In this document: positions 37,454 through 50,473 of the stretch, one piece after another
Layout of the letters: the number at the start of each line of letters is the position of its first letter
Position numbering within the stretch: position 1 is the first letter of the stretch
Assembly: GCA_903873485.1 (NCBI GenBank)
Contig: CAIQOO010000074.1
Span: 20,453-84,452, forward strand
Direction: 5' to 3'
Length of the DNA: 64,000 nucleotides
Origin: an uncultured beta proteobacterium
GTDB lineage: Bacteria > Pseudomonadota > Gammaproteobacteria > Burkholderiales > Burkholderiaceae_C
Made by a program: the position numbers and the translations under genes
The notes under the pieces: generated by a model
The model's database searches: none
Told to the model about the DNA's origin: nothing
What the model saw: the letters and a program-made list of their open reading frames with translations, nothing else

Positions 37454-40400
37454 CTACGCCGTCAGCAGCGCCAGCGCTGCCAGGATGTCGTCTTGCGTGC
37501 GGTAGCGGCCAAAGGCGCGGATGTCTTGCTCGCGCACGATCGGGAAACTGTCGAGGATGTAGGCGGCTTCATCTGCATCCAGCCCGTAGAGGTAGAAAAA
37601 CAGCGCATCCAGTGCCGCCAGCCGGGCGCGGCGCTCCTCCTCGTTCCAGATGAAGGGCGGCAACACCAAGCCGACGGCATCGACATAACCCAGATCGCGG
37701 GCCAGCGGGGCCATGTCGTGCGCGGTGTAGCTTAGCGCCAGAACCTGTGGCACGACAAAGTCGGCCACCGTCGGATGCGGATGGTGGCCGTTCATCAGTT
37801 GGGCGGCACGCATGGCGGCAGCAAAGGCGGCGGGCAGGGGGTCGTTGAAGCGGGCCGGGGCGATGACCGGGAGCTGCTCGACGATGTACCAGTTCAGGTG
37901 TGTGCTTTGCGCCTTTTGTCGCGCGATGTAGTCGAACGGAATTGAATTCAAGTTAGCCAATACCAATGACATCTCACCCGCAGCAAGGGTCTCATTGATC
38001 AGCAACGGCAAGGTGTTTCCTGTAGCCGTACCTGGAACGAAGGCCGCAATCATGGTTCGTACATCGGTAGATCGTGCAATATCGCGAAAGCCTAAAACCC
38101 ACTCACGGCGCAGAGTGGCTGGAACGGCTTCTGCATCAACCCAGTATTGGGGGTTTGGGAACGTATTGGGATTGCTTTTTTCGCTGACCGAAAGCACAGA
38201 GCCGAGCGCAGCATTCTGAAGGTTGCTTTCGTTGACTGTCACGCTGGCGTGCCGATGGTCGTATTGGTGAATCATGCGTCCAACATACAAAGGCAGTGCC
38301 AGCTTATTTTCTTTCTCCCAGCGATTGAGCGGCTTGTGTTGCCAGCCGTGCTGACCAAGTTCAGATCTTTTCATAAACAACTTCGAGTCCGAGGTCATGT
38401 TGAACATTCCCTGATAAAACTTCACTGGCCAGGCTTTCAGATCGGGTTGTTTGCCTTTTGACGTGCTGATCTCGCCTTGCCTGACCAACACAGGGTGATT
38501 GGCGTAGAGTTTGAGGGTGATGTCGGCATCGCGCTGGCTGCGAAAGATGGGGGCCGCACCGGTGTTGGGGTTGACGCTTTGAAAATCGATAGCCTTGAGC
38601 TTGAGCACGCGCGCCGGGTCTTCCAGTTCTTTTATGTGGTGCAAATAAAAAGCGCAGCGAGTCTGATCAAAAGTCCGACCAATACCGCCAAATACCAGCG
38701 TACAAAATTTGAAACTGGCATGGACATCAGGAAAAAATACTTTTTTGTTTTCAAAGTCGAATAACGCGCCAAGTCGGCCGGTACTGCTGAGGCTGCGGAA
38801 AAACGCCGAAGCGCCTTTATCCGCCGCAATGCCGCTGGGTACCAGCAACGCCACCAGCCCGTTGGGTGCAGTGAGGGCTTGCGCCCGTTCTACAAATAGT
38901 TTGTACAGGTTGCTTCGGCCTTCCGCAAGCATCGGGTAGTCGCCGCAAGTTCTCACGACGAATTGCTCCTGGTCTGCGCGTGTGCTGGCGGCCTGAAACT
39001 GCGCCCAAACTTGCCGGTTTGTTGTGGGCAACTCTGCAATCAGCCGTTTGCGGTCAGCAGCACGCAGTTGCGTGGCAATTGCCATGACACGTTCTGAAAA
39101 CCACTCCACCTCCTGCATTTGCAGCATGTCCCACGGCGGGTTGCCGATAACTGCGTCAAAACCACCCTTTGAACCGGTGCCAAATACCGTCGGAAAACTG
39201 GTCCACCAGTGGAAAAACGTCTCCCGAGCTGCCAATGCGCGGGTTTCCACCATGAGTGCATTGGCCGCTTGCGTCGCGGCATCGTTGCCTGCAATTTTTC
39301 CGGTGTTGAGTACACCAACCAAATTAAGCACGGGGTCGAGCAATCTCAATATGCCATCCAAAATCGGGTTTGGCTTGTCTTTGTTCGCCTTCAGCAATTT
39401 TGGAAGATGGCTCATTTTGGCCACCGGCCAGCCTGGTACCAGCCAGCGCATGGCCCGCCAAAAATCCAGCATGGCATGGATAGGGGCAATTTCAGTCGCC
39501 GCTTCGGTCGCCAACTGTTTGGACAACTGCGCCTCGGCAATATCAACATCGGTTAAATCTGCCACTTGCGCGATGTTTTTGGCGGCCAGCGCCAGCCGGT
39601 CAAATTCGCTTTGCATCAGCAGAGCGCCCAATTGCTCCAGGTTGCGCTGCACGATGGACAGTTGCTCGCCGTGCAGGCTGTCGCCGGTTCTCAGATGATG
39701 ATCGAGAAAACTCAAGGGTGCACCGACGGTAAAGGTGTGCAGCCATAGCGCGGTTTTGGCCAGTTCGACGGCCATCGGGTTTTTATCGACCCCGAAAATG
39801 GTCTTTTTCAGAATCATGCGTCGAACAATATGGCGGTCGTCCAATTGCGCATCGGTCACCGCCCAGCCATGATTTTTGGCAGTGGTCTTGATGCTGCCCC
39901 GGATATAAGCGATGCGTGCCACCAAGGGGCTGACCCAGGGCTGCCCTAGTTCCAGCAAATGTGCGGACCAAGGCTGGGTACTGACCTGGAGCGTAGCGGC
40001 TGCAATAGCTTCCAGCACCCGATCCGCCAGGTCGTCCACTAGCGCCACCAAAAAGTGCCCACTCCCCATGGCAGGGTCGCAAATTTTGAGTTCCAGAATT
40101 TGGCTGGCGGGGTCTTTGGCATCAAGCGCATCCCAGTCACCCGGATTGAGAGAGGACTTTGTGCCTAATTTTTTGAGGTGCGCTTCAAAGGCATCCATCC
40201 GCTCATGGACAAGCACACCGACCGATTCACGCAAAATCAGGTGCACCAGATCGTCGTGCGTGTAGTAACTGCCTGATACCTTGCGGGCAAAGCTGGCCGG
40301 CAGCGCGCTGATGCGGTCGATCTCGGGCTGGTCTTTGTCGTCGTCTTTGGCCTGCACCTGATGCACCAGGCTGTACTCCAGCAGCCGCTCGTAAATGCTG

Positions 40401-41764
40401 CCCAGGTGGGCTACCGCCAGGTCGCGGTAGTTGATCCAGCCGGCGACCGATTGTTCTGAGCCTGTCGAAGAGCGGCGGCGCGACAGGGCATCCATGATCG
40501 GGGCCATCACCCGGTCGGGGACTTTGGTGCGGTTAAGCAGCGGCGCACGTGCCCGGTTAAACAGGCCGCCGTTATAGGCCGGCATGCCCAGGTCGTCTTC
40601 GCCTTCGTCAATCAGCTCGATCACTGCGTTCAAACGCAGCCAGATACTGCTGACCGTGCGAGAAAAAACGCCCCCGGCCTCGACCTTGTCACGCACATCT
40701 TCCCGTATCCGGCGCACGCTGTAAGCCGCATAACGCGCATCGCGCACCGGCAGCAGATGGCGGTCTTCGGCGTAAAACAGAAACAGCAGCCGGTACAGCA
40801 GCACCAGCGCCGCCTCGCGCACTTCGTCGAGGTACGCAGGGGTGAACTGGCGGCGCCTGAACTGGCCAAAACCGGTTTCCTGGGTTGCCGCCTGCAGGTC
40901 TGAGCGTGCCAGCGCATCGGCGAGTTGCGGAAAAATATCGGCAAACACCCGCGCCCCCAGGTCTTGCGAGACCCGTTCTTCATACAGCCGGGCCTCGTTG
41001 AGCGCGTAGGCGTGGAATGTGCGGCCAGCGCTTTCCCCTTGTTCGAGCAGCCAGTCCTGCGGCAAAAAGGCGCTGCGCTGAAAAAACACATAAAACAGCC
41101 GCAAGGCGTGGGCGGCGGTCACCAGCCCCAGCGCGGTGTCGGCCTGATCGGCGATCAGCTCGTTTTGCATGCCCTGGACCCCCAGCGCCGCCGCTACATC
41201 GACCTCAAAAAACTCTTCTGATCTGGAGCGCGCATCCTGCCAGTACAGCCGCCAGACGTTGCCGTTGGTCAAGATGCCCCATTTGATGGCGCGCTCCGAG
41301 GCCAGCTCGGCGCGGCTCAGGTAACGCAGCATCTGTGAGGAGGGCGCATCGGGGTCAAAGGCCTCTGACGCATCGCCCCGATCCAGTGGGCGCAGCCAGC
41401 GCTTGGCCTCCAGAATGACCAAGCCGTGGCGGTAGCGGCGCTGGTCCTTGGTCTCGGCCAGCGCTCTGGCTTTTTGGGCGCTGTTGGCAAACAGCAGGCA
41501 GTCGGGCACATCCTGGCGGCGCTTGCCAGACAGGTTGACTTGCGGCAGCGTGTCGTCGCCCCAGCCCAAAGCGACCAGCACCTTGTTGATGACCAGCGCC
41601 TCGGTTTGCGCCTCGTTGATGGTCGAAACAGCACTCAAGCCCTGATAGATACTGCGCAGCGTGCTCTCAAAATGAATGAGACTGGCAGCATCGAACAGTT
41701 GCCACGGCGGTGTTTCGAGCACGCCACGGGTCAAAAAATCCTGGGTAAAGAGTTGGCCTTGCAT
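37454..41764 (-). CDS. single-polypeptide type IIG restriction-modification enzyme (endonuclease, adenine MTase, target recognition domain)
   Basis: N-terminal PD...EAK nuclease motif (PDCLLF...LEAKRW), YNGGLF, GSYYT, DPAMGSGHFL (motif I), IGNPPW (motif IV); 1436 aa. Confidence 0.88.
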   Translation of the reverse strand: MQGQLFTQDFLTRGVLETPPWQLFDAASLIHFESTLRSIYQGLSAVSTINEAQTEALVINKVLVALGWGDDTLPQVNLSGKRRQDVPDCLLFANSAQKARALAETKDQRRYRHGLVILEAKRWLRPLDRGDASEAFDPDAPSSQMLRYLSRAELASERAIKWGILTNGNVWRLYWQDARSRSEEFFEVDVAAALGVQGMQNELIADQADTALGLVTAAHALRLFYVFFQRSAFLPQDWLLEQGESAGRTFHAYALNEARLYEERVSQDLGARVFADIFPQLADALARSDLQAATQETGFGQFRRRQFTPAYLDEVREAALVLLYRLLFLFYAEDRHLLPVRDARYAAYSVRRIREDVRDKVEAGGVFSRTVSSIWLRLNAVIELIDEGEDDLGMPAYNGGLFNRARAPLLNRTKVPDRVMAPIMDALSRRRSSTGSEQSVAGWINYRDLAVAHLGSIYERLLEYSLVHQVQAKDDDKDQPEIDRISALPASFARKVSGSYYTHDDLVHLILRESVGVLVHERMDAFEAHLKKLGTKSSLNPGDWDALDAKDPASQILELKICDPAMGSGHFLVALVDDLADRVLEAIAAATLQVSTQPWSAHLLELGQPWVSPLVARIAYIRGSIKTTAKNHGWAVTDAQLDDRHIVRRMILKKTIFGVDKNPMAVELAKTALWLHTFTVGAPLSFLDHHLRTGDSLHGEQLSIVQRNLEQLGALLMQSEFDRLALAAKNIAQVADLTDVDIAEAQLSKQLATEAATEIAPIHAMLDFWRAMRWLVPGWPVAKMSHLPKLLKANKDKPNPILDGILRLLDPVLNLVGVLNTGKIAGNDAATQAANALMVETRALAARETFFHWWTSFPTVFGTGSKGGFDAVIGNPPWDMLQMQEVEWFSERVMAIATQLRAADRKRLIAELPTTNRQVWAQFQAASTRADQEQFVVRTCGDYPMLAEGRSNLYKLFVERAQALTAPNGLVALLVPSGIAADKGASAFFRSLSSTGRLGALFDFENKKVFFPDVHASFKFCTLVFGGIGRTFDQTRCAFYLHHIKELEDPARVLKLKAIDFQSVNPNTGAAPIFRSQRDADITLKLYANHPVLVRQGEISTSKGKQPDLKAWPVKFYQGMFNMTSDSKLFMKRSELGQHGWQHKPLNRWEKENKLALPLYVGRMIHQYDHRHASVTVNESNLQNAALGSVLSVSEKSNPNTFPNPQYWVDAEAVPATLRREWVLGFRDIARSTDVRTMIAAFVPGTATGNTLPLLINETLAAGEMSLVLANLNSIPFDYIARQKAQSTHLNWYIVEQLPVIAPARFNDPLPAAFAAAMRAAQLMNGHHPHPTVADFVVPQVLALSYTAHDMAPLARDLGYVDAVGLVLPPFIWNEEERRARLAALDALFFYLYGLDADEAAYILDSFPIVREQDIRAFGRYRTQDDILAALALLTA

Positions 41765-41935
41765 GGGTGTCTGTGGGAAGGGGTGTGTGAAAGCTGCCAA
41801 GGGCGCTGCCGGTTGGCCGAGTGTAGGGCGGGCGGCGGCACAAGCGGCGGGCTAGAAGCCGTGATGCCTGCCCGGGCGAGCCGGGCTGTGACAGATTCGG
41901 CGGCTTGCTTTTTGCCTTGTTGCGGCCAACAACCA

Positions 41936-43569: not shown

Positions 43570-44502
43570 CTACCGACGATCTGCTTCAACCCGGTTTCTG
43601 CCGTCGGTCTTGGCCCGGTAGAGAGCTGCGTCTGTCCGGGCCAGCAGGACTGTGACAGATTCGCCGACTTCGAGTTGGGCCACACCGAAGGAGCCGGTGA
43701 CCTGTCCGATCATGGCAAAGTCATGCAACTGCATCGATTGCCGCATATGTTCGGCGATGACAATGGCACCGTCTAAATCAGTGTTGGGACAGATGACCAT
43801 GAATTCCTCGCCGCCCCAACGCCCGATCGTGTCGGTCTTGCGCACACTTTGGCGCAGAATATTGGCGATCGAGGTCAACACCATGTCGCCCACTTGATGC
43901 CCGTGAACATCGTTGACCCGCTTGAAATTGTCGATATCGACCATCACAACCGAAAGCGACTGACCATAACGCACACTGCGCTCGACCTCGCTGAGAAAAG
44001 TGGCATCAAGCTTGTGCCGGTTGAAAAGGCCGGTCAGGCTGTCGGTGACGGAGGTCATTTTGAGTTCAATGTTCTGAAGCGATATCTGGGCGTGTGCTTC
44101 GGCCAATTCGTTCTGGACCTTTTTCAGGGTGCTGATGTCCACCGCAATGGCGTATTTGGCGGTTCTGCCGTCGAACCAGGCAATCAGCTTTTCTTGCAAC
44201 TGATACCAGTGGTCATCGGCTTCGTTGAAATGCTCAAAAATAATTTCGCCGCCGCCACAGCCGGCCTGGGTCAACTCCGGGATGCGACAAAAGGAACAGG
44301 GATCATCTGACTGGTAGATGGCCAAGTGGCAAGGCTTGCCAAGCGCCCCGGCCATGCGTTTGCGCATCGCCAGGTTGGCGGCGATGACCTCATAGGTGGC
44401 GACATCCGCGACATAAATCGGGAAAGGGATGAGGTCGAATATGGTTTGCCAATACTCGGAATCGATCACGCTGGGTAATGGCTTGTTCAATTTGGCCCCC
44501 AT
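43570..44502 (-). CDS. PAS-GGDEF diguanylate cyclase
   Basis: DSLTGLFNR, DIDNFKRVND, RKTD I-site, RWGGEEF; Cys-containing PAS N-terminus. Confidence 0.93.
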   Translation of the reverse strand: MGAKLNKPLPSVIDSEYWQTIFDLIPFPIYVADVATYEVIAANLAMRKRMAGALGKPCHLAIYQSDDPCSFCRIPELTQAGCGGGEIIFEHFNEADDHWYQLQEKLIAWFDGRTAKYAIAVDISTLKKVQNELAEAHAQISLQNIELKMTSVTDSLTGLFNRHKLDATFLSEVERSVRYGQSLSVVMVDIDNFKRVNDVHGHQVGDMVLTSIANILRQSVRKTDTIGRWGGEEFMVICPNTDLDGAIVIAEHMRQSMQLHDFAMIGQVTGSFGVAQLEVGESVTVLLARTDAALYRAKTDGRNRVEADRR

Positions 44503-44521
44503 AGGTTTTATTTGCCGCAGC

Positions 44522-44890
44522 CTATCGTCCGATTACCCGGGCGATATGAGCGGCCAGTTTTTCGGCGTCGACCGGCTTTAGGACATAGCCCAGGGCACCG
44601 GCTTTGAGGGCCTCGCGCACCATGTCTTCCTGGCCGTGCGAGGTGACCATGATGATTTTGGCATCACGAAACTCGGCCAATATGGTTCGGGTGGCCTCGA
44701 TGCCGTCCATGCCGGGCATGGTGATGTCCATGGTCACCAGGTCGGGGTTGTGATCCCGGTAGGCCTGCACTGCGGCCGTCCCGGAGGTCACCGCGCGCAC
44801 CACCCGGTGGCCCATTGCCGTCAGCATGGTTTCCATCTTGCGGGTAGCCAGCAGGGAGTCGTCAACGATCATTACATTCAACGGGGTCAT
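44522..44890 (-). CDS. single-domain CheY-like response regulator
   Basis: IVDD, MDITMP phospho-Asp, VTS, LKP; 122 aa with no output domain. Confidence 0.93.
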   Translation of the reverse strand: MTPLNVMIVDDSLLATRKMETMLTAMGHRVVRAVTSGTAAVQAYRDHNPDLVTMDITMPGMDGIEATRTILAEFRDAKIIMVTSHGQEDMVREALKAGALGYVLKPVDAEKLAAHIARVIGR

Positions 44891-44899
44891 GCGTGTTCC

Positions 44900-45427
44900 T
44901 CAATTTGCAATCAAATTATCGTTAAACAGATGACGCGGCAAAATAAAATCGACATCGAGCTGGCCGTGGGCCGTCTGATGGCTGACGCAGGTGAAAACGG
45001 CTCCCTTGGGGCGATGCAGCCGGCCGCCGTCTTCCAGCACCATGGGAGCCGACAGCACCACCGGGTTGCCCGCCTCCGTTAGGTCTGCCGTGCTGTGGCC
45101 AAGCACAATGTTGATGGTCTCAGCCACCGTATCGAGCAGAAACTGCGGTCGTTCATCCTCTGTCAGGGATAGCCCGGCGGTCTCGACTTCGAGCAGAAAA
45201 GCCGCCAGGGAGCGATCAAAACTGAAGGCGGCAAGGATGCTGACCGGGCCGCCAACGCTGATGATGGCCGTCAGATTGCGCAAAGTCAGCGCATCAATCT
45301 TGCCCTCTGAGAGGGTTGTGGTGGCCAGGAACGCAATGCCCAGCTCATCCTCGAAATGCTGCCGGGTACGCTCCAGCACGCAGGCCATGATGCGCTGGAC
45401 TTGTTGTTCCATTTGACGACTGGTCAT
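44900..45427 (-). CDS. CheX-like phosphatase
   Basis: AETINIVLG (ExxN catalytic motif), SAPMV; CheC/CheX-type organisation. Confidence 0.8.
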   Translation of the reverse strand: MTSRQMEQQVQRIMACVLERTRQHFEDELGIAFLATTTLSEGKIDALTLRNLTAIISVGGPVSILAAFSFDRSLAAFLLEVETAGLSLTEDERPQFLLDTVAETINIVLGHSTADLTEAGNPVVLSAPMVLEDGGRLHRPKGAVFTCVSHQTAHGQLDVDFILPRHLFNDNLIAN

Positions 45428-47823
45428 GCGGCGCTCCTTGCGGTGTTTGAAAGCGGAATGCGAAAAATAAAACTTGTGCCCTGCGCGGCGCGTGATTGCA
45501 GCCGAACTTCGCCGCCCAGGCGCGTCACTTCGGCCTTCACGGCCGCCATGCCTACGCCACGCCCGGACAGCTCGGTGGCTGTCTCGCGGCTGGAAATGCC
45601 GTCGGCCAAGACCAGATCGACGAGCGACCCGTCGGTGACATTGTCGGCGGCCAGTTGCTGCGCCCGCCGGCGCAGAGCGGCCTCGTCAATGCTGGTGCCG
45701 TCATCGCTGATTTCCAGCAACAACTGCAAAGCGGTGCGGGAAATGCGGCAGGTGATGGTGCCGAGCTCGCTCTTGGCAGCGGCAAAGCGGGTTTCCGGGT
45801 CTTCGATGCCGTGGTCAACGGCATTGCGAAAAATGTGGCCCAGACTGCGCAGAAAGGAGCCGAAAACGTCCGGGTCCAGGCGAATGTCCTCGCCCTCGAC
45901 CGCCAGCGGGCCGACTTCCTTGCCCAGTCGGGCCGCGAGCTGCTGAATCAGTCGATCGAAGCCCTTCAACTCTTGGCTCAGAGAGACCCAGCGCAGTTGC
46001 GCAAGTTCGGCCGCGATGGCCCGCTGCGGCCCAGACAAGGCTGGCATTTTCAGAAACTCCGCCGCCAGTTGCTCAAAGCGTCGCGCCTGCTCGGGCGACA
46101 GGGTAACGGCACCGCCCCGGTTGACGTAATCTTCACCCAGGGCATCCATCACCGTGGCCAGGTCAAGATTGAGAAGATGAGTCCATCTGGTGGCAAAGAC
46201 CAGGGCGGCGGCGTGGCTGCCAGCCGGGCCGCCGGGCGTTTGACCTTTACGCGCCTGCAATGCGCTCTCAGTTTCATGCAGGGCGGCCGGCAGATGCTGA
46301 AAACCGAACTGATTGAACGAGCCTTTGAAGGTGTGAATGGCGCGGTAAAGGTCGGCTTCAGACTGCGTGCGCCACGGCAACTGGCCGGCCTGCGCAAAAG
46401 CGCGGAACTCATCGACGGTGGCAAAGAAATCCGGGCCATCCGTCACCGCCGCCAAAATCATCTCCATGCGCCGGGTTTCCTGGGTGACCTTTTGTGCCAG
46501 CTTGCGCGTCTCGGTCACATCGGACAACACCGCCATGATGCGGTTGTCGATCGGGATGAATTCGGCCTTGAGCATTTTGTCGGCCACCTGCAACTCGGTG
46601 GGAATGATCGACAGAAACAGCGCCTGGCGCTGCGGATCGGTTTCAGCCAGGGCATCCTGGATGCAGTCACGCATCAATTTGCGCTGCAGGGCTTGCGTTG
46701 GAAACAGCAATTCGTCCACCGCCTGCCCGGTTGGTGTGCTGCCCAGCAGGCTGATGCAGGCCCGGCTGAACTTGCCGGTGACCAGCAGGTCGGCACCAAA
46801 GGACAAAAACCCCTGGCCGGAGTTGTCGAGCAGGGCCGCAACTTGCTCAAGGGTCTGCGTCACCACCTGATGCTGCTTGGCAATCAGCAGGTTTTTCTCG
46901 CTGATCTGGTGGTTGAATTTGGCCAGCTTGCGGTTCCAGCCGGCAACGCCCAGCAGCAGCAGCCCCATGGCCCCGGCTATCTTCCACAGCAGCGCATAGT
47001 CAAAACCGTGTTCCATGCGCACCGAAATCCATTTGTTGATGATGTCGCGGCGTTCCTGGTCGCTGATCGAGTCAGCCGCCTTTTGCATGATGCCGGCCAG
47101 CAGCGGCTCGTCGTTGCGCGAGGTCACGCAAAGGTCGAGGGTGAAATCGAGCTTGCCCGAAATTTTCAGATCGAGCATGGAAAATTTCTGCAACGAATAG
47201 GCGATGGTCGGCATGGTGTCGATGTAGCCCCACAGTTCGCCCTTGCGCACCCGCTCAAGGCCGTCCTGGGCGCTCTGCACCTCGGTGATCTGAATGCCGG
47301 GGTAGCGGTTGCGCAACATGGCGACAAAGACATAACCCTTGATGATGCCGATCTTGCGCGTGCCGATCTCGGAGCCATCCTTGATGAAAAGTTCCTTGGA
47401 CTGGGTGGCAATCACCAGCGGCTCGACGATGTAGGGCCGGCTGAAATTCATCACGTCACGGCGGTTCGGGACATTCGCCGACATTGACAGGATGTCGCAC
47501 TGGCGGCTGCGCAGGGCCGCCACCGACTCGCTCCAGACCTTGGTTGGCTGCAGCACCAGCGTGATACCCAGCCGCTCGCTCATCAAGGCCATCAGCTCGG
47601 CCCCGATGCCCTCGTGCCGGCCTTTTTCGTTGATGCGCTCGTAGGGCAGCCAATCGGGCTGCACGCACATTTTGATAGGACCCTTTTGCGCCAGGTAGGC
47701 GCGTTCGGCATCGGTCAGCGCTACTTGCCCGCCTGCGGGCTGCGCGGCATTGTCGGCGGCGGCCATGCTGACATGGGCGGTCAACACGAGCCAAAGCAGG
47801 AGGAGTCGGGCGAACTGGCTCAT
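45424..47823 (-). CDS. membrane-bound histidine kinase: periplasmic solute-binding sensor, TM, PAS-like, Hpt, CheA-type HATPase, no CheW domain
   Basis: PDWLPYE SBP domain; TM WKIAGAMGLLLLGVAGW; IHTFKG Hpt; HIFRNAVDHGIE, ISDDG, SGRGVGMAAV; ends right after the HATPase. Confidence 0.85.
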   Translation of the reverse strand: MSQFARLLLLWLVLTAHVSMAAADNAAQPAGGQVALTDAERAYLAQKGPIKMCVQPDWLPYERINEKGRHEGIGAELMALMSERLGITLVLQPTKVWSESVAALRSRQCDILSMSANVPNRRDVMNFSRPYIVEPLVIATQSKELFIKDGSEIGTRKIGIIKGYVFVAMLRNRYPGIQITEVQSAQDGLERVRKGELWGYIDTMPTIAYSLQKFSMLDLKISGKLDFTLDLCVTSRNDEPLLAGIMQKAADSISDQERRDIINKWISVRMEHGFDYALLWKIAGAMGLLLLGVAGWNRKLAKFNHQISEKNLLIAKQHQVVTQTLEQVAALLDNSGQGFLSFGADLLVTGKFSRACISLLGSTPTGQAVDELLFPTQALQRKLMRDCIQDALAETDPQRQALFLSIIPTELQVADKMLKAEFIPIDNRIMAVLSDVTETRKLAQKVTQETRRMEMILAAVTDGPDFFATVDEFRAFAQAGQLPWRTQSEADLYRAIHTFKGSFNQFGFQHLPAALHETESALQARKGQTPGGPAGSHAAALVFATRWTHLLNLDLATVMDALGEDYVNRGGAVTLSPEQARRFEQLAAEFLKMPALSGPQRAIAAELAQLRWVSLSQELKGFDRLIQQLAARLGKEVGPLAVEGEDIRLDPDVFGSFLRSLGHIFRNAVDHGIEDPETRFAAAKSELGTITCRISRTALQLLLEISDDGTSIDEAALRRRAQQLAADNVTDGSLVDLVLADGISSRETATELSGRGVGMAAVKAEVTRLGGEVRLQSRAAQGTSFIFRIPLSNTARSAA

Positions 47824-49538
47824 TGCATGGCTTTTTCCAATTGCTTGAGCGACTTGGCCAGACTGAGCGCCGCCTTGTATTCGCCGCTGGCCACGGCCAT
47901 GGCCTGCTGCGCGAGCAGATAGCTGCGGTATTCGCTGCGGTGAAACTCTTCGCGTTTAGTCAGGACATCGAGTAGCTCATGGGCTTCCTTGACCTGTCCT
48001 GCCTGGGCCAGGCAGCGGGCCAGGCCGCAGCGCGCAAACAGATAGTCAGGATCAAGCGCGTAGGCCTGGCGGTACAGCGCAATGATCTCGGCGCGCGGGT
48101 GCTTCAGCCCTTCCTTGATACCGGCCAGATTGACCAGTGCCATGGGATGCTCAGGATGCATCTGTTGCAGTTGCTGCACATAACCCAGCGCCAAGCGCAG
48201 ATCGCCCGAGTCCACGGCTTCGTGCATGCGCTCGTGCAAGGCTTTGCCCGCCGGTGAAAAGGTACTCTCTTTGAATTCGTCGTGGATGCGCAGATTGGTC
48301 GTCTCGATCGTGCGCAATTCCCCTGCCATCCAGACCTCAATCGGCGCGTTGTTGTTGTGCAGTCCATGACTGCTGAGCCAGTTCAGCAGCGTCATGCGAT
48401 CGGAGTCCGACCCTTTCGGGAGCATGAGCTGCGCCTTCAGGTTTGCCAGTGCTGACGCATCACCGCGCGTTGCGCGCAGTTTCAGCACCATCAAGGCCAG
48501 GTGGCGAACCAGGTCATCGCCCAGACTGGCGGCCCGGCCCAGGTAGTCAGCATGGGCATCGCAGGCTTCAAGCAGCGCGTCCCAGCGCTGCTCCCATTGC
48601 GCGCCGGCTGGTCCCTGCGGCTTGCTGGGGATCGCCTTCACGCTGGTCATCCACTGGCTTGGAAACCACAGGGCGTGGCCGCCGGGCAGTTCGCTCTGCG
48701 GGTCTTTCGCCGCGTCGAACACGGTGCGCTGACCCTGGCTGGCGGTTTTCCAGAAAGCCGCCTTTGTTGACTCCTTCCAGGCTTTCTGCGCGGCTTTTTC
48801 GTCATCCAGGAAACGCAGCCCGGCGACCTGTGCAATGGCATCTTCCGAGCGGCGTGGTTGGGTGTGTTTGAACGTGGCGCGAAAGCCCAGGCAGCGCTCC
48901 AGCCCGTCAGACCAGCAGCGCCAGCGCACCACGCGTTCAAGGGCAAACAGGTTGTCCGGGCTGGTCTGCCAGTTGGCTTCCATCACGGCACGCGCCTGCG
49001 CCGCATCGCCGCTCAGGAACAGCGCCAGCGACAGGTTGTTGCGCGCCGACGGGTGATCAATGCCTTGCAGCACCGCCATACAGGCGGCCAGATTGTCATT
49101 GGCGAGGTGCATGCGTGACAGGTCGATCGCCTCGGCCTGCTCCAGGGTCAGCGCGCCCAGCGCGGACTCGATGCTTGGGGGCAGTGGCATATCCTGCCGC
49201 TGCATGACCGCCAGACGCTGGAGCGCGCGGCCATGCACCGCCACCAGACCGGCAGCTTGGGCACTTTGGCACAGGGCCTCAAGCGCCGCTTGGCTGCCGG
49301 GGTCGCTGAGCTGCCATTCCCAGGCCCGGGCAGCGGCTTGCATCGGTGTGCCGCAGTGACTCTCGATCTCCCAGGCCAGGCCCAGCAGGGGCTTGAAGTC
49401 GGGAAAGGACTTGCGCAGTGCTGCCAGGCGCTGGCTCGCCAGCACCTGGTTGCCACGGGCTGCCAGGCGGCTCACCGTCGTGAGCTGTTCAGCACTGGGG
49501 AGCAGAGCGTTTTTTATGTGCTTGTCGGTTTTGGCCAT
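47820..49538 (-). CDS. TPR-like helical repeat protein
   Basis: Ala/Leu-rich helical repeats such as SARNNLSLALFLSGDAAQARAVM and DPDYLFARCGLARCLAQAGQVKEAHELL; stop overlaps the kinase ATG. Confidence 0.7.
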   Translation of the reverse strand: MAKTDKHIKNALLPSAEQLTTVSRLAARGNQVLASQRLAALRKSFPDFKPLLGLAWEIESHCGTPMQAAARAWEWQLSDPGSQAALEALCQSAQAAGLVAVHGRALQRLAVMQRQDMPLPPSIESALGALTLEQAEAIDLSRMHLANDNLAACMAVLQGIDHPSARNNLSLALFLSGDAAQARAVMEANWQTSPDNLFALERVVRWRCWSDGLERCLGFRATFKHTQPRRSEDAIAQVAGLRFLDDEKAAQKAWKESTKAAFWKTASQGQRTVFDAAKDPQSELPGGHALWFPSQWMTSVKAIPSKPQGPAGAQWEQRWDALLEACDAHADYLGRAASLGDDLVRHLALMVLKLRATRGDASALANLKAQLMLPKGSDSDRMTLLNWLSSHGLHNNNAPIEVWMAGELRTIETTNLRIHDEFKESTFSPAGKALHERMHEAVDSGDLRLALGYVQQLQQMHPEHPMALVNLAGIKEGLKHPRAEIIALYRQAYALDPDYLFARCGLARCLAQAGQVKEAHELLDVLTKREEFHRSEYRSYLLAQQAMAVASGEYKAALSLAKSLKQLEKAMQ

Positions 49539-49796: not shown

Positions 49797-50066
49797 ATGA
49801 CAAGTGTTGCTGTTTCACCCAAATTTCAAGTCGTCATACCCAAAGATGTCCGCAAGCAACTCAACATCCTGCCCGGCCAGCGGGTGGATGTGCGGGTTGA
49901 GGGCTTGCATATCGTGCTGCAGCCAGAGCTGCCGATGTCGGCTCTGCGCGGACTGTGCCCGGGCATCGATACCAATGTACCCAACGACCCCGAAGGCCCA
50001 GCCTGGCCCGGCGGCTGTGACTTGCTGGCTGAACCTGTCTGGGTGCCGCCGAGCCAGCGCGGATGA
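49797..50066 (+). CDS. AbrB/MazE/SpoVT-type antitoxin (VapB)
   Basis: VAVSPKFQVVIPKDVRKQLNILPGQRV; ATGA overlap with toxin. Confidence 0.85.
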   Translation: MTSVAVSPKFQVVIPKDVRKQLNILPGQRVDVRVEGLHIVLQPELPMSALRGLCPGIDTNVPNDPEGPAWPGGCDLLAEPVWVPPSQRG

Positions 50067-50473
50067 ACATTGTTGATTCATGCGGCTGGCTTGAGTTCAT
50101 TGCCAATGGCCAAAATGCAGACTTTTTTCAGCCAGTGCTGGAGGACGAAGAGCAACTGCTGCTGCCTGGTCTGGTGGCTTTTGAGGTAATCCGTCGCTTG
50201 ATGGCGCTCAAACAGGATGTCGCGATTGGCCCCACGCTGGCCGTTATGGGTCGGTTGAAACGGGTCGATTTGACCGTGGCCCAGTTGGCGCAGGCCGCCT
50301 TCGCCGCCCGCACCCACAAGCTGGCCATGGCGGATGCCATTATTTGGCAAACTGCCCAAGTGAGTCAGGCCAGGCTTTATACCCAGGATATTGATTTGCA
50401 AGGTTTGCCCGGAGTGGTTTACCAAGCCAGGCGGCTCAACAACGAAGGCTTGATCCGACCGGGAAATGCATAA
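50063..50473 (+). CDS. VapC PIN-domain toxin
   Basis: IVDSCGWLE, FEV, MADAII acidic PIN residues. Confidence 0.88.
   Translation: MNIVDSCGWLEFIANGQNADFFQPVLEDEEQLLLPGLVAFEVIRRLMALKQDVAIGPTLAVMGRLKRVDLTVAQLAQAAFAARTHKLAMADAIIWQTAQVSQARLYTQDIDLQGLPGVVYQARRLNNEGLIRPGNA

What the first reader, a model, noticed from the sequence alone, without database searches (positions are those of the whole stretch)
43570..49538. Receptor-less chemosensory-like operon: self-sensing CheA-type kinase, CheX, CheY and diguanylate cyclase
Seen: five co-oriented genes with ATGA overlaps (47820-47823, 45424-45427) and gaps of 9 and 19 bp. The kinase has its own periplasmic solute-binding domain and TM helix, then a PAS-like segment, an Hpt (IHTFKG) and a CheA-class ATPase (NAVDHG, DDG, SGRGVG). 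It has no HisKA H-box and no CheW domain, and no MCP, CheW, CheR or CheB is encoded nearby. Known: CheA normally needs MCP and CheW; CheW-less sensor-Hpt-CheA kinases were proposed from genomics as class III histidine kinases, intermediates between two-component and chemotaxis systems, and I know of little experimental work on them. Inference: ligand binding drives phosphorylation of a stand-alone CheY reset by a dedicated CheX, and the output is the REC-less cyclase controlled in trans. This would be a minimal ligand-to-c-di-GMP circuit and is the best candidate for an undescribed system in this window.
Basis: partly seen in the sequence, partly recalled or inferred. Interest (0 to 1): 0.82.

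Follow-up and report, generated by a model that had tools for sequence, protein, structure and literature searches.

The report
Receptor-free kinase-CheX-CheY-cyclase signalling cassette
This is a real, widely conserved four-gene signalling cassette in which a membrane sensor fused directly to a chemotaxis-type kinase works with its own CheY switch, CheX reset enzyme and a c-di-GMP-making enzyme; the kinase type was named from genomics in 2017, but I found no description of the cyclase-coupled form.

Summary
Gene coordinates, overlaps, gaps and motifs are as described. The kinase is SBP_bac_3, TM, PAS, Hpt (His497) and a CheA-type ATPase, with no HisKA and no CheW domain. No MCP or CheW lies on the contig.

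- The upstream TPR gene is a resident Burkholderiales gene, not part of the module.
- The cyclase is not a bare output. It has its own PAS domain with an invariant Cys triad (C58-x10-C69-x2-C72). That triad marks a large PAS subfamily with no solved relative.

The kinase-CheX-CheY core fits the class III histidine kinases (Adebali et al. 2017), so the core is a known kind.

What I found described nowhere is the link to the cyclase. Among 55 distinct metagenomic relatives of this Cys-PAS cyclase:
- a CheY gene is adjacent in 44 of 52;
- CheX is nearby in 42 of 45;
- a class III kinase is in the locus in 22 of 26.

The commonest CheY-cyclase junction is a 4-bp overlap. One contig carries an in-frame CheY-CysPAS-GGDEF fusion. 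The same cassette occurs in Desulfovibrionales genomes.

Best model: periplasmic ligand, then His497~P, then CheY~P (reset by CheX), then control of the cyclase. The last step is inferred. Verdict: new variant of a known kind, interest about 0.6.

The parts
45424..47823 (-). Class III-type sensor histidine kinase, 799 aa: signal/TM1, periplasmic SBP_bac_3, TM2, coiled-coil helix, PAS, Hpt, short helical hairpin, CheA-type ATPase; ends 7 residues after the ATPase
   Evidence: AF2 model of residues 300-799 has pLDDT 91.9. Foldseek best hits are CheA P3P4/P4. The profile also hits CheA P1 structures.
47026..47676 (-). Periplasmic solute-binding (SBP_bac_3 / Venus-flytrap) sensor domain, residues 50-266
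   Evidence: Pfam 62 bits. BvgS VFT2 and the sensor domain of an EAL protein match at E 1e-26. It is the best conserved part of the kinase: 84% identity to L115 against 63-66% for the rest, and 44% to Solidesulfovibrio against 34-39%.
46936..46998 (-). Second transmembrane segment, residues about 276-296
   Evidence: Hydropathy peak.
46519..46815 (-). Family-specific cytoplasmic PAS domain (residues about 337-435) with motif LLDNSGQGFLSF and an invariant Cys356
   Evidence: AF2 secondary structure. Invariant columns in the 54-sequence alignment A1.
46138..46437 (-). Hpt (P1-like) four-helix bundle, residues about 463-562; predicted phospho-accepting His497 in IHTFKG (codon 46333-46335)
   Evidence: Pfam Hpt. 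H, T, K and G of HTFKG are invariant. HTFKG sits 166-172 residues before the N-box in 91 of 120 homologues. The profile matches CheA P1 structures 1tqg, 2ld6 and 1i5n.
46000..46095 (-). Short helical hairpin (residues about 577-608) in the place of the CheA P3 dimerisation domain
   Evidence: AF2 helices 278-292 and 299-309 of the model. Foldseek aligns 245 columns to T. maritima CheA P3P4 (4xiv, TMt 0.64). Sequence profiles match only the last residues of P3.
45454..45981 (-). CheA-type (P4) ATP-binding domain, residues about 615-790, with N-box NAVDHG, G1 DDG and G2 SGRGVG
44900..45427 (-). CheX-type CheY-P phosphatase, 175 aa, with intact D99-x3-E103-x2-N106-x22-P129 signature
   Evidence: Pfam CheX 45.6 bits. 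Motif check. Conserved next to the kinase in relatives.
44522..44890 (-). Stand-alone CheY-type receiver, 122 aa (D10, D11, D55, T83, Y102, K105)
   Evidence: Pfam Response_reg 106.9 bits; best NCBIfam model is CheY. Residue check.
43570..44502 (-). Diguanylate cyclase, 310 aa: Cys-triad PAS, coiled-coil linker (QNxLAEAHA), GGDEF with GGEEF (230-234) and I-site R221-x-x-D224
   Evidence: AF2 model pLDDT 88.4. Foldseek best hits are PAS-GGDEF proteins.
44137..44460 (-). Cys-triad PAS domain of the cyclase (residues about 15-122); invariant C58, C69 and C72 (codons 44287-44331)
   Evidence: Invariant columns. The triad is kept in 149 of the 150 best of 4072 relatives. No sequence relative in the PDB.
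47820..49538 (-). TPR protein, 572 aa: adjacent upstream gene whose stop overlaps the kinase start; NOT part of the conserved module
   Evidence: Pfam TPR_19. About 98 homologues. The two looked up (Rhodoferax sp. and a Burkholderiales MAG) have no kinase, CheX or CheY beside them.

Best explanation
Genes 43570-47823 form a four-gene, receptor-array-independent phosphorelay of the class III histidine-kinase type, and its output is c-di-GMP.

1. A periplasmic Venus-flytrap (SBP_bac_3) domain binds a small ligand (inferred).
2. The signal passes through the membrane helix, a coiled coil and a family-specific PAS domain to a CheA-type ATPase. The ATPase phosphorylates His497 of the Hpt domain on the same protein (inferred from homology to CheA P1 and P4).
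3. The phosphoryl group goes to Asp55 of the stand-alone CheY, and the dedicated CheX removes it, giving a fast, resettable signal (inferred from intact catalytic signatures and conserved gene linkage).
4. CheY-P then regulates the neighbouring Cys-triad-PAS diguanylate cyclase. This is most likely by binding to its PAS/coiled-coil part and changing how the two GGDEF domains pair. The cassette would then act as a PleD- or WspR-like receiver-cyclase split into two proteins.
5. The cyclase's PAS domain, with three invariant cysteines, probably holds a metal or Fe-S cofactor and adds a second, cytoplasmic input. An RxxD I-site limits the output by product inhibition.

Shown here: the domain anatomy, the absence of CheW, HisKA and MCP, and the conservation of the cassette. 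Inferred: every biochemical step, and above all step 4.
For: Anatomy.

The kinase core (PAS-Hpt-ATPase, about 500 aa) is a large family attached to many different sensor domains (PAS, GAF, HAMP, Reg_prop/Y_Y_Y, CHASE, MHYT, SBP_bac_3). It is sometimes fused to CheX or REC.

Linkage seen from the cyclase side:
- Every database relative of the Cys-PAS cyclase that I looked up sits directly after a REC gene, and those on contigs that reach further upstream also follow a CheX gene.
- This includes Megalodesulfovibrio gigas, Solidesulfovibrio magneticus and Maridesulfovibrio.
- In 80 metagenomic loci found with the Cys-PAS domain alone, de-duplicated to 55 cyclase clusters, REC is adjacent in 44 of 52, CheX is within 3.5 kb in 42 of 45, and a class III kinase is in the locus in 22 of 26.
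- The most frequent REC-cyclase junction is a 4-bp overlap.
- Control: of 69 GGDEF ORFs in the window's own genome, only this one lies near such a CheX or has this PAS domain.

Fusions: one contig has REC-CysPAS-GGDEF in a single open frame (L138), and another has CheX-REC fused (L170).

Tree: kinase and cyclase identities fall together across loci. Cyclase-linked kinases fill one well-supported clade (SH-aLRT 97) with a few unlinked members scattered inside it. That pattern suggests old linkage with losses.
Against: - No experiment and no complex prediction supports CheY-P binding to the cyclase.
- The same Cys-triad PAS domain is fused to HisKA kinases inside sister operons. It is also a general sensory module in more than 1000 proteins, with up to four copies per protein. 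This argues that it is a sensor in its own right rather than a CheY-P docking domain.
- The kinases closest to the window's (55-59% identical) have CheX and/or CheY but no cyclase, so the phosphorelay works without it.
- The fusion is a single metagenomic contig and could be an assembly error.
- The 80 loci were selected by similarity to the cyclase, so they say nothing about how common the cyclase is among class III kinase operons. It was present in 3 of roughly 20 loci found from the kinase side.
- The Hpt hit of this particular protein is just below Pfam's cut-off.
Confidence: 0.55

Rival explanations
1. Parallel outputs. The kinase-CheX-CheY relay acts on something else, such as the flagellar or type IV pilus machinery, as proposed for class III kinases. 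The cyclase is an independent redox or metal sensor working through its Cys-triad PAS domain. The genes stay together only because both pathways serve the same behaviour (motile versus sessile).
For: The Cys-triad PAS domain is a widespread stand-alone sensory module with several kinds of output. Many class III kinase operons lack any cyclase. The CheY has all the residues of a motor-type CheY, including the aromatic switch Tyr102. The genome is highly motile and chemotactic, with 8 CheA, 19 CheW-domain and 41 MCP hits.
Against: Mere co-regulation does not explain the very tight and ancient REC-cyclase juxtaposition, with a 4-bp overlap as the commonest junction and adjacency in 44 of 52 clusters. 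It also does not explain the in-frame REC-CysPAS-GGDEF fusion.
Confidence: 0.25
2. Reverse or convergent wiring. The Cys-triad PAS proteins act upstream of CheY. In five-gene versions a CysPAS-HisKA kinase also phosphorylates the same CheY. The cyclase would form PAS-mediated heterodimers with that kinase, or act as a phosphate-independent partner. CheY would then be an integration point or phosphate sink rather than the regulator of the cyclase.
For: Twelve of 69 cyclase loci carry an extra CysPAS-HisKA-HATPase gene between REC and the cyclase. In some loci a CysPAS hybrid kinase replaces the cyclase after CheX-REC. The PAS domain and its linker motif QNxLAEAHA are nearly identical between kinase and cyclase within one operon.
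Against: The window's operon, and most others, have no CysPAS kinase. This wiring therefore cannot be the general logic.
Confidence: 0.12
3. It is an ordinary CheA-type kinase that still depends on receptor arrays (MCP and CheW) encoded elsewhere in this chemotaxis-rich genome, so the operon is only an incomplete che cluster.
For: The genome encodes many MCPs and CheW proteins. The ATPase domain is closest to CheA P4.
Against: The protein ends right after the ATPase, so the P5/CheW-like domain that couples CheA to arrays is absent. It has its own periplasmic sensor and transmembrane segments. The same core is attached to dozens of sensor types in genomes and metagenomes. Intact full-length orthologues exist in distant phyla.
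Confidence: 0.03

Closest known systems
Class III histidine kinases (HKIII; Adebali, Petukh, Reznik, Tishkov, Upadhyay & Zhulin, J Bacteriol 2017, 199:e00218-17)
   Same: The sensor domain is on the same polypeptide as an Hpt domain and a CheA-type ATPase. There is no CheW-like domain and no recognisable dimerisation domain. The partners are a single-domain response regulator and CheX. The genome's second copy (contig C25) also has the soluble MCP-like protein that, as I recall, that paper describes.
   Different: The paper is not held in the library. Its content is from my memory of the abstract, and only the reference itself was verified. As I recall, it proposes regulation of type IV pilus motility and reports a narrow phyletic range. 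Here the operon ends in a dedicated Cys-triad-PAS diguanylate cyclase. The window's kinase falls in a large clade separate from the MCP-associated copy. I could not check whether that clade was part of the 2017 set.
Wsp chemosensory system of Pseudomonas (WspA-F, WspR)
   Same: A chemotaxis-type kinase drives c-di-GMP synthesis through a phosphorylated receiver.
   Different: Wsp needs an MCP, two CheW-type proteins, CheR and CheB, and its receiver is fused to the GGDEF domain. None of these is present here. Here the receiver is a separate CheY with its own CheX, and the cyclase has a PAS domain.
Hk1-Rrp1 of Borrelia burgdorferi (recalled; reviewed in PMC4013479, which I listed but did not read)
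   Same: Periplasmic family-3 solute-binding domains on a kinase control a c-di-GMP synthase by phosphorylation.
   Different: Hk1 is a class I hybrid kinase with HisKA, and Rrp1 is a fused REC-GGDEF protein. There is no Hpt/CheA-type core, no CheX and no PAS cyclase.
SiaABCD of Pseudomonas aeruginosa (SiaD-SiaC complex, PDB 7e6g)
   Same: It is a precedent for a receiver-less diguanylate cyclase switched on in trans by a small protein whose phosphorylation state is set by a kinase/phosphatase pair. SiaD is the best NCBIfam match of the GGDEF half (176.8 bits, below its 290 cut-off) and is a Foldseek hit.
   Different: The partner is an anti-sigma-antagonist-like protein phosphorylated on Thr, not a CheY. 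SiaD has no PAS domain.
BvgS/EvgS-type Venus-flytrap sensor kinases
   Same: A periplasmic SBP_bac_3 domain lies directly before the membrane helix. BvgS VFT2 matches at E 2e-26. The Desulfovibrionales orthologues have tandem VFT domains like BvgS.
   Different: BvgS and EvgS have class I HisKA cores with REC and Hpt relay domains. Here the core is Hpt plus a CheA-type ATPase.
NreB PAS domain with a three-cysteine [2Fe-2S] cluster (PMC13478379)
   Same: A PAS domain in which three conserved cysteines are the sensory site.
   Different: The spacing and order differ: C-x2-C-x11-C in NreB against C-x10-C-x2-C here. There is no detectable sequence similarity to any solved structure. This is only a lead for what the triad might bind.

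Membership tests
CheA (class II histidine kinase; four core domains P1, P3, P4, P5 as used by Berry, Andrianova & Zhulin 2023, PMC10782961) | P1/Hpt domain with phospho-accepting His | tested here: met
   Pfam Hpt 22.7 bits, below the 24.6 cut-off for this protein. Family profile A1 hits CheA P1 structures (1tqg, E 5e-7). His497 is invariant. AF2 predicts a helical bundle.
CheA (class II histidine kinase; four core domains P1, P3, P4, P5 as used by Berry, Andrianova & Zhulin 2023, PMC10782961) | P3 dimerisation domain | tested here: inconclusive
   No H-kinase_dim hit. Sequence matches to CheA start only at the last residues of P3. The AF2 model has a short two-helix hairpin there, and Foldseek aligns it with P3P4.
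CheA (class II histidine kinase; four core domains P1, P3, P4, P5 as used by Berry, Andrianova & Zhulin 2023, PMC10782961) | P4 CheA-type ATP-binding domain | tested here: met
   E 1e-31 to E. coli CheA. Foldseek TM 0.8 to T. maritima P4. NCBIfam CheA models match over P4 only.
CheA (class II histidine kinase; four core domains P1, P3, P4, P5 as used by Berry, Andrianova & Zhulin 2023, PMC10782961) | P5 CheW-like receptor-coupling domain | tested here: not met
   No CheW hit at E <= 0.1. The protein ends 7 residues after the ATPase.
Class III histidine kinase system (HKIII) | Sensor (input) domain on the same polypeptide as the Hpt and CheA-type ATPase, with no CheW-like domain | tested here: met
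   SBP_bac_3, two hydrophobic segments, PAS, Hpt and HATPase_c.
Class III histidine kinase system (HKIII) | Adjacent single-domain response regulator and CheX phosphatase | tested here: met
   The arrangement is conserved in relatives.
Class III histidine kinase system (HKIII) | Soluble MCP-like protein (recalled as present 'in many instances', so not strictly defining) | tested here: not met
   No MCPsignal hit on contig C74. One is present beside the paralogue on C25.
Class III histidine kinase system (HKIII) | Falls within the protein set and phylogeny defined in the 2017 paper | not testable with these tools
   The paper is not held. The window's kinase and the MCP-linked paralogue lie in different clades.
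Class I histidine kinase (HisKA/DHp) | DHp domain with an H-box next to the ATPase | tested here: not met
   No HisKA-family hit. Class I kinases match only the G2/lid end of the ATPase.
CheX (CheC/CheX/FliY phosphatases) | Pfam CheX domain and the D/S-x3-E-x2-N-x22-P active-site signature | tested here: met
   45.6 bits against a cut-off of 27. D99, E103, N106 and P129 are present. Activity was not tested.
CheY-type receiver | Acidic pocket, phospho-Asp, and the Thr, Tyr and Lys switch residues in a single-domain protein | tested here: met
   D10, D11, D55, T83, Y102 and K105. Best NCBIfam model is CheY, below its equivalog cut-off.
Active diguanylate cyclase (GGDEF) | GG(D/E)EF active site, plus the RxxD inhibitory site | tested here: met
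   GGEEF at 230-234 and R221-x-x-D224 five residues upstream. Pfam GGDEF 147 bits. Enzyme activity is not testable here.
Wsp-type chemosensory pathway | MCP, CheW, CheR, CheB and a REC-GGDEF output in one cluster | tested here: not met
   No MCP or CheW domain on the contig. The window's REC and GGDEF are separate proteins. CheR and CheB were not searched separately.
NreB-type Fe-S PAS sensor | Three conserved Cys ligating a [2Fe-2S] cluster inside the PAS fold | tested here: inconclusive
   Three invariant Cys exist, but in a different order and spacing from NreB. There is no sequence match to solved structures. The cofactor is not testable here.

The most novel reading that the evidence does not exclude
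The CheX-CheY-CysPAS cassette may be an unrecognised, widespread output unit. In it, the Cys-triad PAS domain would be the dedicated receiver of CheY-P, and it would also carry a metal or Fe-S cofactor. A chemotaxis-style signal, fast and reset by a phosphatase, would then be turned directly into pulses of c-di-GMP, or in sister operons into a second phosphorelay, and would be gated by cellular redox or metal state. That would be a split, two-input version of PleD/WspR, coupled to array-free CheA-like kinases with many different sensors.
Probability: 0.3. Interest if true: 0.75.

Novelty: new variant of a known kind. Interest (0 to 1): 0.6.

Why it matters
Class III kinases show that the CheA catalytic core can run without receptor arrays, yet I found almost no experimental work on them.

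This locus, and more than 50 distinct relatives of it, supply what that class has lacked: a concrete and easily assayed output. The output is a diguanylate cyclase that almost always sits directly after the CheY gene.

If CheY-P controls the cyclase, the cassette is a compact route from an extracellular ligand to c-di-GMP with a built-in fast reset. That bears on how bacteria switch between swimming and attachment. It would also be useful as a small, portable sensor circuit.

The Cys-triad PAS domain has more than 1000 members and no solved relative. It is a separate lead for a new cofactor-binding sensor.

Tried and rejected
- The 2017 class III kinase paper could not be read by DOI or PMC id. 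Searches for 'HKIII' and related phrases found no further relevant papers.
- Promoter and terminator scans gave counts at chance level and say nothing about the transcription unit.
- TPR gene as a fifth member: rejected.
- Cryptic HisKA or CheW domain: none found by Pfam, NCBIfam, PDB profile search or the AF2 model.
- Cyclase PAS domain as a relative of a solved structure, NreB included: no sequence hit with either a single sequence or a profile. The Foldseek hits of the whole cyclase are generic PAS-GGDEF proteins.
- A literature look-up of the closest solved sensor domain (7EJG) gave only methods papers.
- The genome-contig scan with the kinase profile was diluted by ordinary CheA genes. 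Only about 13 of the 80 loci were true family members.
- The idea that the cyclase is a recent add-on specific to the window's lineage was rejected, because the linkage is found across the main kinase clade.


Full report
**Observation.** This gives two 4-bp overlaps and gaps of 9 and 19 bp. Translation and Pfam/NCBIfam scans give these products:
- a TPR protein;
- a 799-aa kinase with SBP_bac_3 (residues 50-266), a weak Hpt hit (487-533, 22.7 bits against a cut-off of 24.6) and HATPase_c (660-792);
- a CheX (45.6 bits);
- a single-domain receiver whose best NCBIfam model is CheY;
- a GGDEF protein (147 bits) with a weak PAS hit at its N-terminus.

No HisKA, H-kinase_dim or CheW family appears for the kinase, even at E <= 0.1. 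The quoted motifs (IHTFKG, NAVDHG, DDG, SGRGVG) are all present. Two hydrophobic segments, at about residues 4-23 and 276-296, bracket the SBP domain, so it is periplasmic. The genome is rich in chemotaxis genes: 19 CheW-domain hits, 41 MCP hits and 8 ordinary CheA genes. None of the CheW or MCP hits lies on the window's contig.

**The kinase.** Against solved structures, the C-terminal 190 residues match CheA P4 at E 1e-31, and the periplasmic domain matches BvgS VFT2 at E 2e-26. I aligned residues 300-799 with 53 homologues (A1). The AlphaFold model has pLDDT 91.9. In protein numbering it shows:
- a long helix leaving the membrane;
- a PAS fold (about 337-435);
- a connecting helix;
- a helical bundle carrying His497 (about 463-562);
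- a short two-helix hairpin (about 577-608);
- the ATPase (about 615-790).

The chain ends there, so there is no room for a CheW-like domain. Foldseek's best hits are CheA P3P4 and P4. The family profile also finds CheA P1 structures at E 5e-7. Sequence matches to CheA begin only at the very end of P3. Whether the hairpin is a reduced dimerisation domain therefore stays open. H497, T498, K500 and G501, the N-box, and the G1 and G2 boxes are invariant in A1. The His motif lies 166-172 residues before the N-box in 91 of 120 homologues.

**Family and literature.** The 500-residue core has very many relatives. The best 120 cover 87-100% of it. They carry quite different N-terminal sensors (PAS, GAF, HAMP, Reg_prop/Y_Y_Y, CHASE, MHYT, dCache, SBP_bac_3), and some are fused to CheX or REC. 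This matches what I recall of the class III histidine kinases of Adebali et al. 2017: a sensor domain, Hpt plus a CheA-type ATPase, no dimerisation or CheW domain, and partners CheY, CheX and often a soluble MCP. That paper is not in the library. I could verify only its reference, so the comparison rests on memory. By the four-domain definition of CheA in PMC10782961, this protein is not a CheA. The window's genome has a second such kinase on contig C25, with a soluble MCP-like gene and two CheX-like genes beside it. That copy fits the 2017 description even better.

**The TPR gene.** Its homologues (about 98, 35-61% identical) are far more common than the kinase among the close relatives found; the named ones are from Burkholderiales. 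The two I looked up, a Rhodoferax sp. and a Burkholderiales MAG, have no kinase, CheX or CheY next to them. A 65%-identical kinase on another contig is followed by the same CheX, CheY and cyclase. The conserved unit therefore has four genes. The cassette sits directly behind a resident gene. The kinase type is patchy in the order: about 6 of 201 genomes carry it, and none of four genomes from the same family does.

**The cyclase.** The model (pLDDT 88.4) shows a PAS fold (15-122), a long linker helix (124-150) and a GGDEF domain. The GGDEF domain has GGEEF at 230-234 and an RxxD I-site. Alignment with relatives shows three invariant cysteines (C58, C69, C72) and an invariant linker motif QNxLAEAHA. 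A full-library search with residues 1-145 finds 4072 proteins, 1265 of them at E <= 1e-10. Of the best 150, 149 keep the motif C-x(8-11)-P-C-x-[FHW]-C. The domain occurs in about 300-aa cyclases, in about 385-aa HisKA kinases, in hybrid kinases, and in up to four copies in multi-PAS proteins. Neither the single sequence nor the profile matches any solved structure. A recent paper describes a three-cysteine [2Fe-2S] PAS domain in NreB. There the cysteines are ordered C-x2-C-x11-C, so it is only a lead that the triad binds a metal or cluster. The cyclase is therefore unlikely to be a passive output.

**Linkage.**
- From the kinase side, operons of relatives usually hold CheX and/or CheY, but most have no cyclase.
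- From the cyclase side, the picture is very different. Every database relative of the Cys-PAS cyclase that I looked up follows a REC gene, and those on contigs that reach further upstream also follow a CheX gene.
- In Megalodesulfovibrio gigas, Solidesulfovibrio magneticus and a Maridesulfovibrio MAG the cassette lies beside a class III kinase. The first two kinases carry SBP_bac_3 sensors that align end to end with the window's kinase.
- A metagenome scan with the Cys-PAS domain alone returned 80 loci. After de-duplication at 90% identity there are 64 clusters, 55 of them cyclases. Among those with enough flanking sequence, REC is adjacent in 44 of 52, CheX is within 3.5 kb in 42 of 45, and a class III kinase is in the locus in 22 of 26.
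- The commonest REC-cyclase junction is a 4-bp overlap.
- As a control, the window's own genome has 69 GGDEF ORFs. Only this one is near such a CheX or carries this PAS domain.
- Variants are informative. Twelve loci insert a CysPAS-HisKA kinase between REC and the cyclase. In a few loci a CysPAS hybrid kinase replaces the cyclase. One contig has CheX fused to REC. One has REC, CysPAS and GGDEF in a single open frame.

**Evolution.** I built a maximum-likelihood tree of 72 kinase cores. It separates a small group that is never cyclase-linked, which includes the C25 paralogue, from a large clade (SH-aLRT 97). In that clade cyclase-linked kinases are spread throughout and a few unlinked ones are nested among them. 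At least 7 changes of state are needed. The window's kinase sits with unlinked relatives that are 55-59% identical, whereas most linked ones are 25-45% identical. Cyclase and kinase identities fall roughly together. The simplest reading is old linkage with repeated loss. The sample is biased towards linked loci, however, because most were found through the cyclase. The sensor domain is the best conserved part of the kinase: 84% against 63-66% with the closest relative, and 44% against 34-39% with Solidesulfovibrio. This points to a conserved ligand.

**Mechanism.** The shown facts are the anatomy, the intact catalytic signatures of CheX, CheY and the cyclase, the lack of array components, and the conserved cassette. 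I infer the following chain:
1. Ligand binding in the periplasm controls autophosphorylation at His497.
2. The phosphate passes to CheY Asp55.
3. CheX resets CheY.
4. CheY-P acts on the cyclase, whose PAS domain adds a second input.

The last step rests on gene order, translational coupling and one natural fusion. I put it at about even odds, and the whole model at 0.55. The main rival (0.25) is that CheY-P goes to the motility apparatus and the cyclase senses on its own. The broad use of the Cys-triad PAS domain as a sensor favours that rival. A second rival (0.12) is reverse or convergent wiring, in which the Cys-triad PAS proteins act upstream of CheY; it cannot be general, because most operons have no CysPAS kinase. 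Functionally the cassette resembles Wsp and Hk1-Rrp1 (kinase to c-di-GMP), and SiaC-SiaD (a receiver-less cyclase activated in trans). It fails the membership tests for each of these.

**Earlier notes of this scan** (unchecked AI notes). They record similar sensor-fused CheA-like kinases with CheY and CheX in other genomes, and some were filed under class III kinases. They also record CheY-CheC-PAS-GGDEF cassettes with a different PAS subtype. These notes agree with the general picture but are not independent evidence.

**Verdict.** The kinase-CheX-CheY core is a member of a kind already named from genomics. I found the cyclase-coupled form, with its Cys-triad PAS domain, described nowhere in the searchable literature. 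It is conserved widely enough to be a real functional unit. I rate it a new variant of a known kind, with interest 0.6.

**Limits.** No complex prediction was possible. The key 2017 paper could not be read.

Noticed in passing
window 46756-46758 (Cys356 of the kinase): The family-specific PAS domain of the kinase has an invariant cysteine (motif YSRAC) in all 54 aligned family members. The motif LLDNSGQGFLSF is nearly invariant too. No cofactor or role is known.
   Followed up: no
G000 contig C25:29152-34852 (L100:9152-14852): A second class III-type kinase (HAMP-Hpt-ATPase, 951 aa) lies beside a REC gene, a 354-aa CheX-containing protein, a 184-aa CheX-like protein and a 289-aa soluble MCP-signalling protein. 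A 1536-aa dCache-PAS-PocR-GGDEF-EAL gene lies upstream. This kinase belongs to a separate clade that is never linked to the Cys-PAS cyclase.
   Followed up: partly
L112:2219-8093 (also L157, L169): A class III kinase is fused to an Fe-hydrogenase-like sensor (Fe_hyd_lg_C, Fer4) and to CheX. It is followed by REC, CheX, REC and the Cys-PAS cyclase. This is a possible H2- or redox-sensing version of the cassette.
   Followed up: no
L138:1430-2434: REC, Cys-triad PAS and GGDEF are read in one open frame with no stop codon. This is a possible natural fusion of the CheY and the cyclase. It is a single metagenomic contig that ends inside the GGDEF domain.
   Followed up: partly
L002:8436-9590, L004:2123-3277, L110:5896-7071: Desulfovibrionales versions of the operon carry an extra class I kinase (CysPAS-HisKA-HATPase, about 385 aa). 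Its PAS domain and linker are close copies of the cyclase's.
   Followed up: partly
L089:981-7434 (Magnetospirillum sp. XM-1): A related kinase (49% identical core) sits in an operon with REC, TPR, HEAT-repeat and family-2 glycosyltransferase genes and a second REC. This suggests a polysaccharide-synthesis output in that lineage.
   Followed up: no
window 49797-50473 and 37454-41800: The cassette lies in a variable neighbourhood. A MazE-PIN toxin-antitoxin pair lies upstream of the TPR gene, and a large Eco57I-type restriction-modification gene lies downstream of the cyclase (gene calls).
   Followed up: no
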